A stretch of DNA of 64,000 bases, taken from the sequence record OZ209023.1; one strand, 5' to 3'. Positions 40,726-45,777 of the stretch are shown piece after piece. This DNA is from Escherichia phage T4. The position numbers were made by a program, and so were the translations under genes. Position 1 is the first letter of the stretch, and every line of letters starts with the position of its first letter. The notes beneath the pieces were generated by a model that saw only the letters and a program-made list of their open reading frames with translations, did not search any database and had not been told where the DNA came from.

Positions 40726-41034
40726 TTAATCTTCTATGATATCTCTATCATATCCAAGTGAAATGAGAGTTTCTTTGAAGTGTTTAATGTTCTTTTGTCT
40801 AGAATCATTAATGAAAATGACTGGATAACGAATGTTAAGAGATGTGAATCCAGCGCGTTTAGCAAGAGATACAATCAGCGGACGATCATACTCAATCTTA
40901 CCATTATTTGTAAGAACTTTATAGAAAGTAAAAGGAGCATTGAGCTCCTTTAGAAGTTTTGTAACTGATTGACATCCAGGACAACGACCTACTTCATCTG
41001 GAATTCCATAGACTTCAATCTTATTTTGTTTCAC
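40726..41034 (-). CDS. nrdH: glutaredoxin-like protein NrdH
   Basis: 102-aa ORF with CPGC redox motif. Confidence 0.75.
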   Translation of the reverse strand: MKQNKIEVYGIPDEVGRCPGCQSVTKLLKELNAPFTFYKVLTNNGKIEYDRPLIVSLAKRAGFTSLNIRYPVIFINDSRQKNIKHFKETLISLGYDRDIIED

Positions 41035-41036
41035 AA

Positions 41037-41249
41037 CTATTCCTTACTAAGAGCAGCATTCAGCTTGTTAGTAATTTTATCCAGACGCTCATTGAATTCA
41101 CTAGAAGATAAGCCCTTTTCTGGAGAAATCAAACTAATCACGAAAAATATAGCAATAAAAGGAATAAGGAAAATAGCTCCAACTGCCATAAACAGAAAGA
41201 ATGTTACAGTTGTAAGAAAATCAGCTAAACCTTTACGAAATTTATACAT
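41037..41249 (-). CDS. small membrane protein
   Basis: 70-aa ORF with central hydrophobic helix. Confidence 0.45.
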   Translation of the reverse strand: MYKFRKGLADFLTTVTFFLFMAVGAIFLIPFIAIFFVISLISPEKGLSSSEFNERLDKITNKLNAALSKE

Positions 41250-41367
41250 TTACATTTACCTTTAATTGATTAACCAAGCATTGATAAGCACTAAACTATA
41301 CTGCGAATAAAATTCTGGATCAAAATGAAAAATCATATCATTTATAGTATCCATAATGTAATTCAAT

Positions 41368-41838
41368 TTAATCATGTTTCCACACCCCATCGGTATTTGA
41401 CCAAAGTCGCTGATTATCTGATCCTCGCCACAGCTTTTTGGTCGGAAGATTTTTCTCATACTTCCCATCAATAATAACATCAACATATTTAAGCATTTCT
41501 AGTTGTTTAATATCTTCAAACTTATATCCTGTCCACAACCAGATATCTTTCTCCGGAAATCTTGCTTTAACCCAAGAAACTAAATTTGAAATCTCTTCTC
41601 GGTTCTGTGGATAAAGTGGGTCACCGCCGGTTAAGGTAAGGCCTTGGATATACGATTTGCTTAAATGGGACGCAAGTTCTTTAACGGTATTCATAGTGAA
41701 TAACTGTCCGTTACGAGCATTCCAAGTACTACGATTATAACAACCTTCGCATTTATGCAAACATCCAGTGACGAAGAGAACGACCCTACATCCAGGGCCG
41801 TTAACGAAATCGCATGGATAAATTCTATCATAATTCAT
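41368..41838 (-). CDS. nrdG: anaerobic ribonucleotide reductase activating protein NrdG (radical SAM)
   Basis: 156 aa from MNYDRIYPCDFVNGPGCR...CxxxCxxC radical-SAM cluster motif. Confidence 0.85.
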   Translation of the reverse strand: MNYDRIYPCDFVNGPGCRVVLFVTGCLHKCEGCYNRSTWNARNGQLFTMNTVKELASHLSKSYIQGLTLTGGDPLYPQNREEISNLVSWVKARFPEKDIWLWTGYKFEDIKQLEMLKYVDVIIDGKYEKNLPTKKLWRGSDNQRLWSNTDGVWKHD

Positions 41839-42460
41839 CTTTATATTTCCAAGTATATCCCTTATGAATAGATTGAATTCCTTTGCAACATTTATAAACA
41901 GCAGAATGAAAAAATCCTGCATTTCTTATTTCAGTTGCTCCAGTTAGTTCTATTGTATTTCCGTCTGGTGAATAGCCAATAACCGTTTTGGTGTTAAAGC
42001 GATTTCTAGAACTATTTTTGATATGCTCTTTATGATTAGTAGACAAAGTTCTTCCTGTTAGCCCATCAGATATCCTTTTTCCAAAATCATCAGGAAGAGT
42101 TACTTTAGACCTAGCTATGCTCATTAGCTTCTTAGTTTTATCGCTTCTTTTTGCGCCACGCTGATTTTCAAATTTCTTAGCTTTTGCATACGCGTATTGT
42201 GAAGAAGTAACTTTTCTATGCTTACTATTACTCATTATCCAATATGCATCATACATCTTTCCACCATATATTTTAGCCAATAAATGGTGAGCAGTATAGT
42301 GGGCCTTATAAGTTAAAAATACTAAGTTGTCTAAATCATCTGAACCACCCATACTTCTTGGAATTATATGATGAAGTTCATACCCGGCTTTAGTTTGACG
42401 GGGCTTAGATGGGTGTTCAGCAGAATTAACTAGATTTGAATAGATTCTGTCATAATTCAT
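41828..42460 (-). CDS. mobC: freestanding HNH homing endonuclease MobC
   Basis: 210-aa ORF; HHIIPRSMGGSDDLDNLVFLTYKAHY HNH motif; between nrdD and nrdG. Confidence 0.7.
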   Translation of the reverse strand: MNYDRIYSNLVNSAEHPSKPRQTKAGYELHHIIPRSMGGSDDLDNLVFLTYKAHYTAHHLLAKIYGGKMYDAYWIMSNSKHRKVTSSQYAYAKAKKFENQRGAKRSDKTKKLMSIARSKVTLPDDFGKRISDGLTGRTLSTNHKEHIKNSSRNRFNTKTVIGYSPDGNTIELTGATEIRNAGFFHSAVYKCCKGIQSIHKGYTWKYKDEL

Positions 42461-45307
42461 TGGTGCTTAACCCTATGCATGATTTCTTTATTTTTACCGA
42501 GATTAAATCCGCGTTCGTTCGGATTTCCCAAATAACCACATGTTCTTCTTATGGTATTCATCTTTTTAGGATCAGTTTCTCCACAAATAGAACAAACAAA
42601 TCCGTTTTCAGTAGGAGTCATTTCATGGGTACTTCCACATGTAAAACATTTATCTACTGGCATATTAACACCAAAATAATCTAAATGCTGTGCAGCATAA
42701 TCCCACACGGCCTCAAGACCTTTTAAGTTATTTTTCATATCAGGAAGTTCAACATAAGAAATGTGACCACCTGTCGCAATGAAATGATATGGCGCTTCAC
42801 GAGAAATCTTTTCAAACGGAGTAATATTTTCTTCTACTGAAACATGGAAACTGTTAGTGTACCAGCCTTTATCGGTAACATCTTTTACGCTTCCATATTT
42901 TTCTGTATCGAGTTTACAGAAGCGATAACACAGGTTTTCAGCAGGAGTCGAATATAAACTAAAAGCAAATCCGGTTCTTTCAGTCCACTGTTTAAGATGA
43001 GCATTCATTTTAGTTAAAATTTCTCGTCCAATATCACGACCGACAAGAATATTCAATTCGTGAATACCAATGTATCCTAAAGACACTGAACTTCTACCGT
43101 TTTTAAATAACTCAATTATGTCGTCATCAGGTTTAAGACGAACCCCGAATGCACCTTCTTGGTAAAGAATAGGAGCAACAGTAGCTTTAACTCCTTTTAA
43201 GGAACTAATTCTACACATCAAAGCTTCAAAACATAAATCCATTCGTTCATTAAATAGCTCAACAAATTTCTGTTCATTGAACTGTGTTCCAATATAAGAA
43301 TCTAACGCGATGCGAGGAAGATTCAGTGTTACAACACCAAGATTATTGCGTCCATCAAGAATTTCATTGCCAGTCGAATCTTTCCATACGCTCAAGAAAC
43401 TACGGCAACCCATCGGAGAAACAGGAACAGATGAACCAGTGATAGCTTTATTGTTCTTAGCTGAAATAATATCAGGATACATCCTTTTGCTTGCGCACTC
43501 TAGAGCAAGCTGTTTAATATCATAGTTCGGATCGTCTTTATAAAGATTAACACCTTCTTCAACGAACATAACAAGCTTAGGGAAAATAGGAGTTATCCCA
43601 TCACGACCAAGACCTTTAATACGATTTTTCAGAATTGCTTTCTGAATCATTCGTTCAGTCCAGTCAGTTCCCGTACCAAATGTAATTGTTACAAAAGGAG
43701 TCTGTCCGTTTGAACTGAATAACGTGTTCACTTCATCAATGTGTTCAGTAGAGTTCGCTACTTCTCTACCCGTTTATATGAAACAATGTAATTTGGATAA
43801 TTGTCATCTAAACACAAATCTTTAATACGACTTGGGTGGAGTTTTAAATCTTTAGCAGCATCCACAAATGATTTATAGATATTGTCATTTATTTTAACAT
43901 ATTCTGGGACGGGATGAATTGTTATTTTTATATCTATAACATTTGGATGATTACTAACCTGTTCTTCAGAGCATTTAAGAAATTTTGCAGCTGATTTAAA
44001 ACTTCTAAATTTATTTCCGGATTTTAAAGCTATAGAAACAGTCTTTTTAGCCGTTCTACTACCAATATTATTTTTAACATGAGCTTCACTTCTACTATTA
44101 TTTTTATAATGCTCAATCAATTTCTCTCGTATCTTATCTTTATGTTTTAAAGATAAGATTTTACCTTTATGGGCATTACTAAGTTTTTGCTTATGTTCTT
44201 CTGAATCCGGATATTTGTTAAATTTATATCCACCTATAGATTTATTAAGAATAAATTCGTTATTAAAATATTTCCTAATAAGCATTTCTTCATGTTTAAG
44301 GGCCGATTCATAAGAATCAAAAACTTGAAGAATTATCCACTTAGCTTTATAATCTTTAAGCTTTTCTTTAACAAGCTTAGATGACGAATTGTATTCTTTC
44401 CAATTTGTATCTTTACCATATATAGTTTTGAATTTTTTAAAACCTATATAAAAAGACTTATCAGGAAATCTTACCATATAGGTAAATGCTACAGAATTGG
44501 CAATTTTTAAGCTTTTTCTTAATTTCCATTTCATCGTTTCACCTCGTATTCATATTTATACGAGGATAAACAGCTGCATGTCACCATGCAGTTCAGACTA
44601 TATCTTCAACTCTTAGAGTTGTCTGCCGTTTCGGGTCGCTTGACCCTACTCCCTTACATTCATCAGGGATAGTCGTTGGGCATTTACAGCTACTGCTGAT
44701 TTAGCAACGGATTGTCTCAGTGAGAGTTTCCCGTTTTAGGCAGATTTTACATGAGCTTGACTTACGTTAACTCATAAGCTTGGAATGCATCGTATACGTC
44801 TTTTTCTGTTTTAGATTGAGCATAATTCAACGCATCAGCGATTTGCCATTTTTCTGCATCCTCAATATGTTTTGCATAGGTGCGTTTAACATAAGGAGAA
44901 AGTACTTTATCTACATTCGCAAAAGTCGTTCCGCCGTATTGGTGAGAAGCAACTTGCGCAGTAATTTGTGCCATAATTGCAGTAGCAACTCCAATTGATT
45001 TAGGAGTTTCAATCTGCGCATTACCAAGCTTAAATCCGTTTTCAAGCATTCCTTTTAAATCTACTAAACAGCAATTAGTAAATGGAAGAGCAGGGGAATA
45101 ATCAATATCATGCACGTGAATAATTCCGCTTTCATGCGCTTTCATAATAAAAGACGGGACCATATTTTTGGCAATGTGTTTAGACACAATACCAGCCATA
45201 AGGTCCCGTTGAGTTGGAAAAACACGAGAATCTTTATTAGCATTCTCGTTTAAAAGGTCTTTATTAGTTTTATGAATTAATCCTTCAATTTCTTTTTCAA
45301 TTGTCAT
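42457..45307 (-). CDS. nrdD: anaerobic ribonucleoside-triphosphate reductase NrdD, interrupted by group I intron: complement(join(42457..43736,44770..45307)), 605 aa
   Basis: exon 2 has C-terminal glycyl-radical motif RRTCGYLG and Cys cluster; exon 1 ORF runs into intron; splice sites placed so exon 1 ends in U, intron ends in G and is 1033 nt. Confidence 0.8.
43758..44534 (-). CDS. I-TevII: intron-encoded GIY-YIG homing endonuclease I-TevII
   Basis: 258-aa ORF inside the nrdD intron; N-terminal FYIGFKK GIY-YIG-like motif. Confidence 0.8.
   Translation of the reverse strand: MKWKLRKSLKIANSVAFTYMVRFPDKSFYIGFKKFKTIYGKDTNWKEYNSSSKLVKEKLKDYKAKWIILQVFDSYESALKHEEMLIRKYFNNEFILNKSIGGYKFNKYPDSEEHKQKLSNAHKGKILSLKHKDKIREKLIEHYKNNSRSEAHVKNNIGSRTAKKTVSIALKSGNKFRSFKSAAKFLKCSEEQVSNHPNVIDIKITIHPVPEYVKINDNIYKSFVDAAKDLKLHPSRIKDLCLDDNYPNYIVSYKRVEK
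44542..44565 (-). promoter_or_regulatory. late promoter TATAAATA (44553-44560) embedded in a hairpin that sequesters the I-TevII SD
   Basis: palindrome cctcgtat...atacgagg; minus-strand TATAAATA and GAGG SD just upstream of I-TevII ATG. Confidence 0.6.
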
Positions 45308-45777
45308 TTTAAACTCTTTCTAAGCTGCTTCTTGAATGAAGCTATTAATTGTGTTTTGGTGTCAGATTCATTATATTCAAATCCTCTTTGAAGCATCTCG
45401 GCCATCATTTCCTCTTTTCCTAAACGAGAAAATTCCTTTGATTTATCTCCAACAAAGTTAGGGTGAATATTATTTTGGGTGTAATCGGATTTTAAATAAG
45501 TAAGTAAATTTTCTAACCATTCAAGATAATCAACACCTTGTCCCTTTAAGCCAGAACGATTAAATTTATGCTTCATTTGACCTTCTGCAGCATTGCATAG
45601 ATTACAAAGCAATCCACGCACCTTTCCTGCTTTTGGTCCATTTAATTCATGGTCATGGTCGAGGTGATTAGCTTGAACATCAGGATTTAGTTCTCGTTGG
45701 CAAATTAAGCATTTACCGTTTTGTGCATCATAAAATTTCTGTTTTTCTTCTTTGTATAATTTGCCAGTCAATAACAT
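45304..45777 (-). CDS. 49: endonuclease VII (Holliday junction resolvase) gp49
   Basis: 157-aa ORF; zinc-binding CLICQ...CNLCN and HxxxH motifs; recognised sequence. Confidence 0.9.
   Translation of the reverse strand: MLLTGKLYKEEKQKFYDAQNGKCLICQRELNPDVQANHLDHDHELNGPKAGKVRGLLCNLCNAAEGQMKHKFNRSGLKGQGVDYLEWLENLLTYLKSDYTQNNIHPNFVGDKSKEFSRLGKEEMMAEMLQRGFEYNESDTKTQLIASFKKQLRKSLK

What the first reader, a model, noticed from the sequence alone, without database searches (positions are those of the whole stretch)
41815..42460. nrdG and the upstream HNH gene mobC share an identical 7-codon start
mobC begins ATGAATTATGACAGAATCTAT (MNYDRIY) at 42460 and nrdG begins ATGAATTATGATAGAATTTAT (MNYDRIY) at 41838. 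The 21 nt differ only at two synonymous positions. All four Mob HNH ORFs in the window start MNY..(I/V)Y. This suggests either that nrdG acquired its start from the inserted endonuclease gene or that a recombination or duplication footprint marks the insertion junction.
Basis: seen in the sequence. Interest (0 to 1): 0.45.

Follow-up and report, generated by a model that had tools for sequence, protein, structure and literature searches.

The report
mobC reuses the nrdG start codon
In phage T4 the selfish endonuclease gene mobC sits inside the first codons of the nrdG gene: it reads from a copy of nrdG's own start and carries a replacement nrdG start behind it, so the shared seven codons are an insertion and recombination junction, not a start that nrdG borrowed.

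Summary
The window is phage T4. In detail: mobC (41828-42460, minus strand) and nrdG (41368-41838, minus strand) both begin MNYDRIY, with 19 of 21 nt identical and copies 622 nt apart.

"nrdG took its start from mobC" is refuted. MN[YF]DR[IYF]Y opens 83 of the 120 best NrdG homologues, bacterial ones included. mobC-free phages have nrdD directly followed by nrdG with the same 21 nt.

The "junction footprint" reading is supported, with the direction reversed. In three Klebsiella phages the 633-nt mobC ORF differs from T4's only at nt 8-9. There it carries the local nrdG codon (MNF), and the upstream DNA is unrelated to T4's. So the 21 nt act as the left recombination arm.

A second, unrelated HNH gene, which I call HE2, is fused to the first 40 nt of the resident nrdG in two phage genera.

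All mobC-carrying T4 relatives also carry about 270 nt of Klebsiella-phage-type nrdG. That is co-conversion.

One caveat applies. Mob-family proteins natively begin MNYxKIY, and one environmental member begins MNYDRIY at another locus. Part of the T4 match is therefore family conservation.

This is a variant of intronless homing, of moderate interest.

The parts
42440..42460 (-). Upstream copy of the 21-nt repeat. It forms codons 1-7 of mobC (MNYDRIY). Its ATG overlaps the nrdD stop (ATGA, 42457-42460), the same position that the nrdG start occupies in mobC-free phages.
   Evidence: It is the only in-frame ATG/GTG/TTG before the HNH histidines.
41818..41838 (-). Downstream copy of the repeat. 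It forms codons 1-7 of nrdG (MNYDRIY). The mobC stop (TGA, 41828-41830) lies inside it, giving an 11-nt overlap.
   Evidence: The identical 21 nt start nrdG in the mobC-free genomes L038 and L041.
41828..42460 (-). mobC, a free-standing HNH endonuclease gene of 210 aa. The body from nt 22 onward is the mobile part.
   Evidence: Pfam HNH PF01844 scores 27.6 bits against a cut-off of 21.4. The body is at least 99.3% identical in 31 phage records. The ORF differs from the Klebsiella phage copies (Boboto, Wolf_ER13) only at nt 8-9.
41368..41838 (-). nrdG, the class III ribonucleotide reductase activase (156 aa).
   Evidence: Pfam Fer4_12 at 2e-50 and Radical_SAM. Homologues.
41539..41808 (-). nrdG nt about 31-300, a tract of Klebsiella-phage (Jiaodavirus) type inside T4 nrdG. 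It was co-converted with mobC. From nt 301 onward nrdG is ordinary Tequatrovirus type.
   Evidence: In 30-nt bins, T4 versus KP185 is 87-100% identical and T4 versus T2/RB14 is 40-90% over nt 31-300, dropping to 40-77% over nt 91-300. From nt 301 onward T4 versus T2/RB14 is 97-100% within nrdG. All 28 records with the T4-type junction plus tract contain mobC, and the best other matches to the tract are Klebsiella phages at 90-94.5%.
42457..43731 (-). 3' exon of nrdD. Its last 300 nt are of local Tequatrovirus type, so there is no co-conversion upstream of mobC.
   Evidence: 289-294 of 300 nt are identical to T2, RB14 and RB32.

Best explanation
The two copies of the 7-codon start are the footprint of an endonuclease-gene cassette that sits inside the 5' coding end of nrdG, not between genes. 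The arrangement is [nrdG nt 1-21] - mobC body - [a complete nrdG beginning again at its ATG].

The upstream copy stays where the nrdG start lies in empty-site phages, with its ATG overlapping the nrdD stop. It now serves as the only start codon of mobC, so MobC is made from nrdG's translation-initiation context. The cassette carries a replacement nrdG start at its 3' end, overlapping the mobC stop by 11 nt, so nrdG stays intact.

During homing, the nrdG sequence downstream of mobC is the right homology arm. The 21-nt nrdG start is, or is part of, the left arm. This lets the cassette enter any genome with a similar nrdG, whatever lies upstream.

Shown here:
- The junction position and the chimeric start in Klebsiella phages.
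- The co-converted nrdG tract in T4.
- The same design, with a 40-nt arm, for a second HNH gene (HE2).

Inferred:
- Codons 4-7 of T4's mobC (GAC AGA ATC TAT) were inherited from a Jiaodavirus-type nrdG during an earlier stay in such a phage.
- The native Mob N-terminus (MNYxKIY) supplied the microhomology that fixed the junction in register.
- MobC itself makes the break in nrdG.
For: 1. Empty site. In T2, RB14 and RB32 the nrdD stop overlaps the nrdG start (caATGAATTATGATAGATTTTATCC). In T4 the same context precedes mobC.

2. Klebsiella phages. Boboto, Wolf_ER13 and Shark_ER15 carry mobC starting ATGAATTTCGACAGAATCTAT (MNF...). That is 20 of 21 nt identical to the nrdG start of their mobC-free relative KP185, and the upstream 300 nt are local (290/300 against KP185; 25/60 against T4). 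Across the whole 633-nt ORF, the only differences between the T4 copy and the Boboto or Wolf copies are nt 8-9.

3. Downstream of mobC these phages have a T4-type nrdG start, and nrdG nt 1-112 match T4 at all or all but one position in Wolf_ER13 and Boboto; Shark_ER15 instead carries the variant 'PCC'-type start over nt 1-36.

4. In all six mobC-carrying Tequatrovirus/Mosigvirus genomes examined, nrdG nt about 31-300 are Jiaodavirus type. In all HE-free genomes, and in those with other endonuclease genes, this stretch is Tequatrovirus type. All 28 database records with the T4-type junction plus tract contain mobC.

5. A second HNH gene, HE2 (OMNI12 type, 32 records, only 38% identical to MobC over 60 aa), begins with nrdG nt 1-40. 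This is 39/40 against RB14 in OMNI12 and 40/40 against KP185 in Roth78, and similarity then stops abruptly. HE2 is followed by a fresh nrdG start with the same 11-nt overlap. Its T2 paralogue has a different native N-terminus.

6. mobC has no other possible start codon before His30.

7. Y3 is nearly invariant in the Mob family. The only exception is the Klebsiella-phage MobC, whose F3 equals the local NrdG.
Against: 1. The Mob HNH family natively begins M(N/D)YxK(I/H)Y. An environmental Mob-type gene (L040) with its own ribosome-binding site begins ATGAATTATGACAGAATTTAC (MNYDRIY) next to a DNA-polymerase fragment, far from any nrdG. MobC could therefore have had MNYDRIY natively. In that case the match in T4 is a coincidence that was exploited rather than a product of the insertion.

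2. Within T4 the excess over background is only 3-4 nt.

3. No endonuclease activity or cleavage site is known for MobC; it is listed as 'ND, target unknown' in PMC2988022.

4. No genome with a precise mobC deletion was found.

5. The original insertion event cannot be reconstructed.
Confidence: 0.68

Rival explanations
1. Native coincidence, exploited. MobC always began MNYDRIY, within the natural range of the Mob N-terminal motif, and NrdG always began MNYDR(I/F)Y. The chance 19-21-nt similarity is why this endonuclease gene settled at the nrdG start and why crossovers fall there. T4's mobC codons 1-7 are its own and are not derived from nrdG.
For: The family consensus is MNYxKIY. The L040 HNH gene starts MNYDRIY at a non-nrdG locus and is 19/21 nt identical to both T4 copies. 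nrdG shares 15-16 of 21 nt with mobA, mobB and mobD anyway.
Against: None of 15 sampled relatives has D-R at positions 4-5. L040 came from a targeted search of 2.9 million contigs for this very pattern. T4's mobC nt 10-20 (GACAGAATCTA) are 11/11 identical to the Jiaodavirus nrdG start, differ from the Tequatrovirus nrdG at 3 positions, and are linked to a Jiaodavirus-type nrdG tract. HE2 shows that outright capture of nrdG codons does happen at this site. In the Klebsiella phages at least codon 3 of mobC is demonstrably nrdG-derived.
Confidence: 0.22
2. Pure coincidence with no role. Two unrelated families happen to start alike, and the insertion boundaries lie outside the repeat.
For: Both N-termini are family-conserved. 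The genome is AT-rich with similar codon use.
Against: T4 and the Klebsiella phages share no similarity upstream of the ATG, yet they are identical from nt 10 of mobC onward. The boundary therefore lies within the repeat. The repeat is the best direct repeat of the region and unique in the window.
Confidence: 0.04
3. nrdG acquired its start from the inserted endonuclease gene.
For: Only the shared 7 codons in T4 itself.
Against: The start MN[YF]DR[IYF]Y occurs in 83 of the 120 best NrdG homologues, bacterial ones included. The same 21 nt occur in mobC-free phages with nrdD and nrdG adjacent. T2, RB14 and RB32 match at 20 of 21 nt.
Confidence: 0.01
4. Ongoing gene conversion between the two copies within a genome keeps them alike (concerted evolution).
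For: T4's nrdG has Ile6, like mobC, whereas T2, RB14 and RB32 have Phe6.
Against: In Boboto and Wolf the two copies differ at 4 of 21 nt and have not been homogenised. Ile6 is the commonest residue in phage NrdG without any mobC.
Confidence: 0.03

Closest known systems
Intronless homing of free-standing T4 endonuclease genes (SegF, SegG, MobE; SegH at this same nrdD/nrdG site)
   Same: It is a free-standing endonuclease gene without a promoter of its own, lying between conserved genes. Its distribution among close relatives is sporadic, and flanking markers are co-converted. RNR genes are the target neighbourhood, and different endonuclease genes occupy the same site (PMC2988022).
   Different: In the described cases the gene lies between intact genes and has its own start. 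Here the cassette is inserted after codon 7 of the target gene (after nt 40, in codon 14, for HE2). It reads from the target's start codon and carries a replacement gene start. MobC activity has never been shown.
Endonuclease insertions that split a phage gene (Aeh1 mobE in nrdA; T4 mobA between genes 60 and 39)
   Same: An HNH Mob-type gene is inserted inside a coding sequence of an essential nucleotide-metabolism or topoisomerase gene, with host function retained (PMC3653736; bioRxiv 10.1101/2022.08.31.505936).
   Different: Those insertions leave the host gene in two pieces that must reassemble or be bypassed. Here a 21-nt or 40-nt duplication restores a complete nrdG, and the N-terminal fragment is recycled as the endonuclease's own N-terminus.
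[quoted passage not shown]
   Same: The endonuclease ORF gains the host gene's translation signals by in-frame fusion. Gene conversion of flanks produces partial duplication and partial foreign replacement of the host gene (PMC8393795).
   Different: Those elements sit in self-splicing introns of organelle genes. Here there is no intron: Rfam finds only the nrdD group I intron at 44574-44805 and nothing at mobC. The system is a lytic phage.
Target-site duplications of transposable elements
   Same: A short direct repeat of target sequence flanks the inserted gene.
   Different: The repeat length is not fixed (21 nt for mobC, 40 nt for HE2). The copies are diverged and lineage-specific. There are no terminal inverted repeats and no transposase. 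The repeat always begins exactly at the nrdG ATG.

Membership tests
Free-standing HNH (Mob-type) homing endonuclease gene | HNH catalytic motif | tested here: met
   PF01844 scores 27.6 bits against a cut-off of 21.4, at residues 28-50. E28, H30, H31, N45, H54 and H58 are invariant in the family alignment.
Free-standing HNH (Mob-type) homing endonuclease gene | Sporadic presence at one site among close relatives, with empty sites in the others | tested here: met
   31 of about 835 records with this nrdD-nrdG region carry mobC. T2, RB14, RB32, KP185, L038 and L041 are empty sites.
Free-standing HNH (Mob-type) homing endonuclease gene | Horizontal spread with co-conversion of flanking markers | tested here: met
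   The mobC body is 100% identical between T4 and Klebsiella phages whose upstream flanks are unrelated. A Jiaodavirus-type nrdG tract is strictly linked to mobC in Tequatroviruses.
Free-standing HNH (Mob-type) homing endonuclease gene | Site-specific cleavage near the insertion site in genomes that lack the gene | not testable with these tools
   The literature lists MobC activity as not determined and its target as unknown (PMC2988022).
NrdG, class III RNR activase (radical SAM) | Fer4_12/Radical_SAM domain with a CxxxCxxC cluster motif | tested here: met
   Fer4_12 matches at 2e-50. GCLHKCEGC is at residues 25-33.
NrdG, class III RNR activase (radical SAM) | The N-terminus MNYDR.Y is part of the family and not a T4 novelty | tested here: met
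   83 of 120 homologues start MN[YF]DR[IYF]Y.
Intron-encoded homing endonuclease | The ORF is embedded in a self-splicing intron | tested here: not met
   The only Rfam hit in 41000-45500 is the nrdD group I intron at 44574-44805. mobC abuts and overlaps both neighbouring genes.
Transposon-type target-site duplication | Fixed-length duplication, terminal inverted repeats and a transposase | tested here: not met
   The repeat is 21 nt for mobC and 40 nt for HE2. No inverted repeats lie at the cassette ends. The only gene in the cassette is the HNH nuclease.

The most novel reading that the evidence does not exclude
HNH endonuclease genes that invade nrdG may have a distinct cassette design: 'start-codon capture plus gene-start replacement'. 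In this design the cassette is bracketed on both sides by sequence of the same target gene (nt 1-21 or 1-40 on the left, nt 1 onward on the right). That makes it a self-contained homing unit. It can cross between phage genera that do not share the upstream neighbour, as between T4-like coliphages and Klebsiella Jiaodaviruses. It also ties MobC synthesis to the host gene's translation signals and nrdG translation to passage through mobC. On this reading T4, the reference phage, owes its mobC and two thirds of its nrdG to such an intergeneric exchange, and MobC is a currently active element with a target in the conserved CxxxCxxC-coding part of nrdG.
Probability: 0.4. Interest if true: 0.55.

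Novelty: new variant of a known kind. Interest (0 to 1): 0.42.

Why it matters
mobC has been in the T4 map for decades as a putative homing endonuclease with no shown activity and no known target.

- The junction analysis gives sequence-level evidence that it has moved very recently between coliphages and Klebsiella phages.
- It shows that T4's own nrdG is a mosaic made by that movement.
- It shows how a free-standing endonuclease gene can lodge inside the first codons of a conserved gene without harming it, while borrowing that gene's start codon.
- It gives concrete predictions for experiments: the left junction lies in the 21 nt, and the target and immunity differences lie in nrdG nt about 24-112.
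- It warns annotators. Several database records call the fused endonuclease 'NrdG', or start nrdG at the wrong ATG.

Tried and rejected
1. RNA structure at either start. Folds of 86-nt windows are no better than shuffles (z = +1.18, -0.58, -0.48). No regulatory hairpin is claimed.

2. Promoter and terminator scan of 41300-42900. Fewer promoter-like sites than in shuffles, so nothing usable.

3. Intron remnant around mobC. Rfam finds none.

4. Transposon-like ends. There are no inverted repeats at the cassette ends.

5. 'Scar' genomes in which recombination between the two copies had deleted mobC precisely while leaving the T4-type nrdG tract. A synthetic deletion-product query found none. All 28 full-coverage hits contain mobC, and the one contiguous hit (236Ecol005PP) is T2-type.

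6. IMG/VR scan for further duplicated nrdG starts. It returned 23 loci, each with a single match and no new fusions. It did turn up L040 and L035, HNH genes that natively start MNYDRIY, which weakened my earlier argument that 'DR' must come from nrdG.

7. Close MobC relatives at other loci. None exist in the protein database (best hit 38-48% identity) or in the phage collection, so the native MobC N-terminus cannot be read directly.

8. The primary paper on this locus (Sandegren et al. 2005, NAR 33:6203) is not held. I cannot exclude that it already remarks on the shared start.

Full report
**Identity of the window and check of the observation**

The region is 100% identical to phage T4. All genes here are on the minus strand.
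- nrdD 3' exon: 42457-43731.
- A 210-aa HNH ORF (mobC): 41828-42460.
- nrdG: 41368-41838.

RefSeq T4 has the same three genes. mobC overlaps the nrdD stop by 4 nt (ATGA), and nrdG overlaps the mobC stop by 11 nt (ATGAATTATGA).

mobC starts ATGAATTATGACAGAATCTAT and nrdG starts ATGAATTATGATAGAATTTAT. Both encode MNYDRIY, 19 of 21 nt are identical, and the copies lie 622 nt apart.
- The pattern occurs nowhere else in the window even with 3 mismatches allowed (expected 0.07).
- It is the top direct repeat of the region.
- The four Mob ORFs in the window start MNYEKIY, MNYLNIY, MNYDRIY and MNYTKVY.

Within T4 alone, however, it is only modestly above background. nrdG shares 15-16 of 21 nt with the other three mob starts, and the mob paralogues share 14-17 of 21 with each other.

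**Is the nrdG start borrowed? No**

- In mobC-free T2, RB14 and RB32 the nrdD stop overlaps an nrdG that begins ATGAATTATGATAGATTTTAT (MNYDRFY).
- In two mobC-free T4-like genomes from IMG/VR (L038, L041), nrdD is followed directly by nrdG with exactly T4's 21 nt.
- Of the 120 best NrdG homologues, 83 begin MN[YF]DR[IYF]Y. They include bacterial proteins named by NCBI as Chromobacterium, Chitinibacter and Deefgea NrdG (MNYDRYY...), and 11 are exactly MNYDRIY.

**Is the Mob start family-intrinsic? Yes**

Twelve metagenomic MobC homologues (30-48% identity), together with mobA, mobB and mobD, align from residue 1 with consensus MNYxKIYxxLI. M1 and Y7 are invariant and Y3 is nearly invariant. None of these 15 relatives has D-R at positions 4-5.

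A targeted pattern scan of IMG/VR did find one Mob-type HNH gene (L040, 41% identical to MobC) that starts ATGAATTATGACAGAATTTAC (MNYDRIY). It has its own Shine-Dalgarno sequence and a TATAAATA element, and it lies after a DNA-polymerase-like fragment rather than near nrdG. The scan also found a degenerate HNH gene with the same start in a high-GC phage (L035). MNYDRIY is therefore rare in the family but lies within its natural range.

**Decisive comparative evidence**

The 601-nt mobC body is at least 99.3% identical in 31 phage records. These comprise T4 strains, other Tequatroviruses, a Mosigvirus record and three Klebsiella Jiaodaviruses: Boboto, Wolf_ER13 and Shark_ER15.

Jiaodaviruses have a small DUF7415 ORF between nrdD and nrdG, so their DNA upstream of nrdG is unrelated to T4's (25/60 identical). 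Their mobC-free relative KP185 starts nrdG with ATGAATTTCGACAGAATCTAC (MNFDRIY). In all three mobC-carrying Klebsiella phages mobC starts ATGAATTTCGACAGAATCTAT (MNFDRIY).

Over the entire 633-nt ORF, Boboto and Wolf_ER13 differ from T4 only at nt 8 and 9. These are exactly the positions where the local nrdG start differs. Upstream of the ATG each phage has its own lineage's sequence (290/300 for Boboto against KP185; 289-294/300 for T4 against T2, RB14 and RB32).

The left boundary of the transferred DNA therefore lies inside the 21-nt repeat: nt 10-20 in the Klebsiella phages and nt 10-11 in Tequatroviruses. At least the first three codons of the Klebsiella-phage mobC come from the resident nrdG. 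F3 in these proteins is the only exception to the near-invariant Y3 of the family.

**Right side: co-conversion**

Downstream of mobC, the Klebsiella phages Boboto and Wolf_ER13 carry a T4-type nrdG start, and their nrdG nt 1-112 match T4 at all or all but one position; Shark_ER15 instead has the variant 'PCC'-type start described under side observations.

In the other direction, in T4 and in all five other mobC-carrying Tequatrovirus/Mosigvirus genomes examined:
- nrdG nt about 31-300 are of Jiaodavirus type (87-100% per 30-nt bin against KP185; 40-90% against T2 and RB14 over nt 31-300, and 40-77% over nt 91-300).
- From nt 301 onward nrdG is ordinary Tequatrovirus type (97-100%).

HE-free phages, and phages with other endonuclease genes at the site, have the Tequatrovirus type throughout.

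A query made of the T4 nrdD end joined directly to T4 nrdG nt 1-330 found 28 records that cover it. All of them have mobC in between. The best remaining matches to the nrdG part are Klebsiella phages at 90-94.5%.

T4's nrdG is thus a mosaic whose 5' two thirds arrived with mobC from a Jiaodavirus-like donor. The 100% identity of mobC between T4 and Boboto or Wolf points to a second, very recent exchange. T4's mobC codons 4-7 (GAC AGA ATC TA-) equal the Jiaodavirus nrdG start at 11 of 11 nt and differ from the Tequatrovirus nrdG at three positions. This fits inheritance from that earlier residence, though it is an inference.

**A second, unambiguous case at the same site**

Another HNH gene, which I call HE2 (OMNI12 type), has these properties:
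- It is 278-279 aa long and occurs in 32 records. The Tequatrovirus and Klebsiella-phage copies are about 85% identical.
- It is only 38% identical to MobC, over 60 aa.
- It begins with nrdG nt 1-40 of the resident lineage: 39/40 against RB14 in OMNI12 and 40/40 against KP185 in Roth78. Similarity stops abruptly after that.
- The 60 nt upstream are 60/60 local.
- It is followed by a fresh, diverged nrdG start (MNYDRIYPCC...), again overlapping the endonuclease stop by 11 nt.
- Its T2 paralogue, at another locus, has a different native N-terminus, and homology begins only at 'KLAL'.

HE2 has no native MNY motif. Capture of the nrdG start codon by an endonuclease gene is therefore a real process at this site and not an artefact of family resemblance. 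SegH-type GIY-YIG genes occupy the same site without sharing the start.

**Mechanism proposed**

The cassette lies within nrdG, after codon 7 for mobC and after nt 40, within codon 14, for HE2. The upstream copy of the nrdG start keeps its original translation context. For mobC it is the only possible start codon, since there is no other in-frame ATG, GTG or TTG before His30. The cassette's 3' end supplies a new nrdG start.

In homing, the break would be repaired from a mobC-carrying genome using nrdG as the right arm. Observed right junctions lie at about nt 113-130 in the Klebsiella phages and about nt 300-330 in Tequatroviruses. The nrdG start would serve as the left arm, plus upstream DNA where that is shared.

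The exact register of the fusion in MobC (MNYDRIY + SNLVNSA aligned with MNYxKIY + xxLIxxA) is best explained by recombination through the microhomology between a native Mob start and the nrdG start.

The following are not shown: that MobC makes the break, where it cuts, and how the first insertion arose.

As a lead, the mobC-linked nrdG haplotype is identical over nt 52-112 in eight of the nine mobC-carrying genomes compared (Boboto differs at nt 66). It differs from every HE-free allele at the synonymous positions nt 24 and 63, and from most of them at nt 69, 72, 75 and 96. This stretch covers the CxxxCxxC-coding region.

**Rivals**

- MobC natively began MNYDRIY, and the coincidence was the cause rather than the result of its location. 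L040 keeps this alive. I rate it about 0.2. It shares the conclusion that the repeat is the recombination junction.
- Pure coincidence without any role is contradicted by the Klebsiella-phage junctions.
- Gene conversion between the copies is not supported: they differ at 4 of 21 nt in Boboto and Wolf.
- No RNA structure, intron remnant, transposon ends or precise-deletion scars were found.

**Literature**

The T4 mobile-element review lists mobC as free-standing, HNH, activity not determined and target unknown. [quoted passage not shown] A 2022 preprint notes that segH replaces mobC in some genomes. No held paper mentions the shared start. The primary paper, Sandegren et al. 2005, is not held.

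In fungal mitochondria, in-frame fusion of endonuclease ORFs to upstream exons, and N-terminal duplications of host genes through intron mobility, are described (PMC8393795). These are the closest conceptual parallels.

**Verdict**

- The first interpretation (nrdG borrowed the start) is refuted.
- The second interpretation (junction or duplication footprint) is supported, with the direction and mechanism now specified.
- This is a new variant of intronless homing rather than a new kind of element. Interest is moderate.

Noticed in passing
L014/L015/L016/L017 1502-1550; L012 1502-1550; L006 1470-1520; L009 1668-1720; L008 and L010 1462-1510: An nrdG allele with D10C (MNYDRIYPCCFVNGPG; ATGAAYTATGAYAGAATATAYCCNTGYTGC) lies downstream of three different endonuclease genes: mobC, the OMNI12-type HNH gene (HE2), and segH-like genes. 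It was not seen in any HE-free genome examined. It may be an immunity allele.
   Followed up: partly
L014, L015, L016, L017 positions 840-880: In SHFML-11, ELT1, BCPSen_003 and BEU50 the nrdD 3' end differs from T4's up to 22 nt before the mobC ATG, and nrdD stops (TAG) 12 nt before mobC. This is a second type of left junction, and it alters the NrdD C-terminus.
   Followed up: no
L040 1664-2913 (IMG/VR 3300035665_001376): A Mob-type HNH gene (2128-2913) natively starts MNYDRIY and has its own GAGG ribosome-binding site and a TATAAATA late-promoter-like element. It follows an ORF resembling the N-terminus of T4-type DNA polymerase, so the polymerase gene may be split.
   Followed up: partly
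window 41839-41922; L011 1418-1972; records OL870318.1, KY000080.1, AP018813.1: Annotation problems caused by this architecture. nrdG is called from the upstream in-frame ATG (window 41922, giving 184 aa) in some records. The fused HE2 is labelled 'activating protein' in UTI-K1 and KPV15. T2 record AP018813.1 has scrambled product names, with nrdG labelled 'tail sheath monomer'.
   Followed up: no
window 42457-42460: The 2010 review (PMC2988022) states that mobC overlaps the upstream ORF by 24 bp and has an RBS 27 nt upstream. The sequence and RefSeq give a 4-nt ATGA overlap with nrdD.
   Followed up: yes
window 41727-41815 (nrdG nt 24-112): The mobC-linked nrdG haplotype is identical over nt 52-112 in eight of nine mobC-carrying genomes from two phage genera (Boboto differs at nt 66). 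It differs from all HE-free alleles at the synonymous positions nt 24 and 63, over the CxxxCxxC-coding region. This is a candidate MobC target and immunity region.
   Followed up: partly
L004 637-870; L005 652-876: Klebsiella Jiaodaviruses carry a 77-aa DUF7415 ORF between nrdD and nrdG that T4-type phages lack. Its 3' end overlaps the nrdG (or mobC) start by 29 nt.
   Followed up: no
window 44574-44805 and 43758-44534: The nrdD group I intron (Rfam RF00028, 105 bits) and its 258-aa GIY-YIG-like ORF lie just upstream. The nrdD-nrdG segment of T4 thus carries two unrelated endonuclease genes within 3 kb.
   Followed up: no
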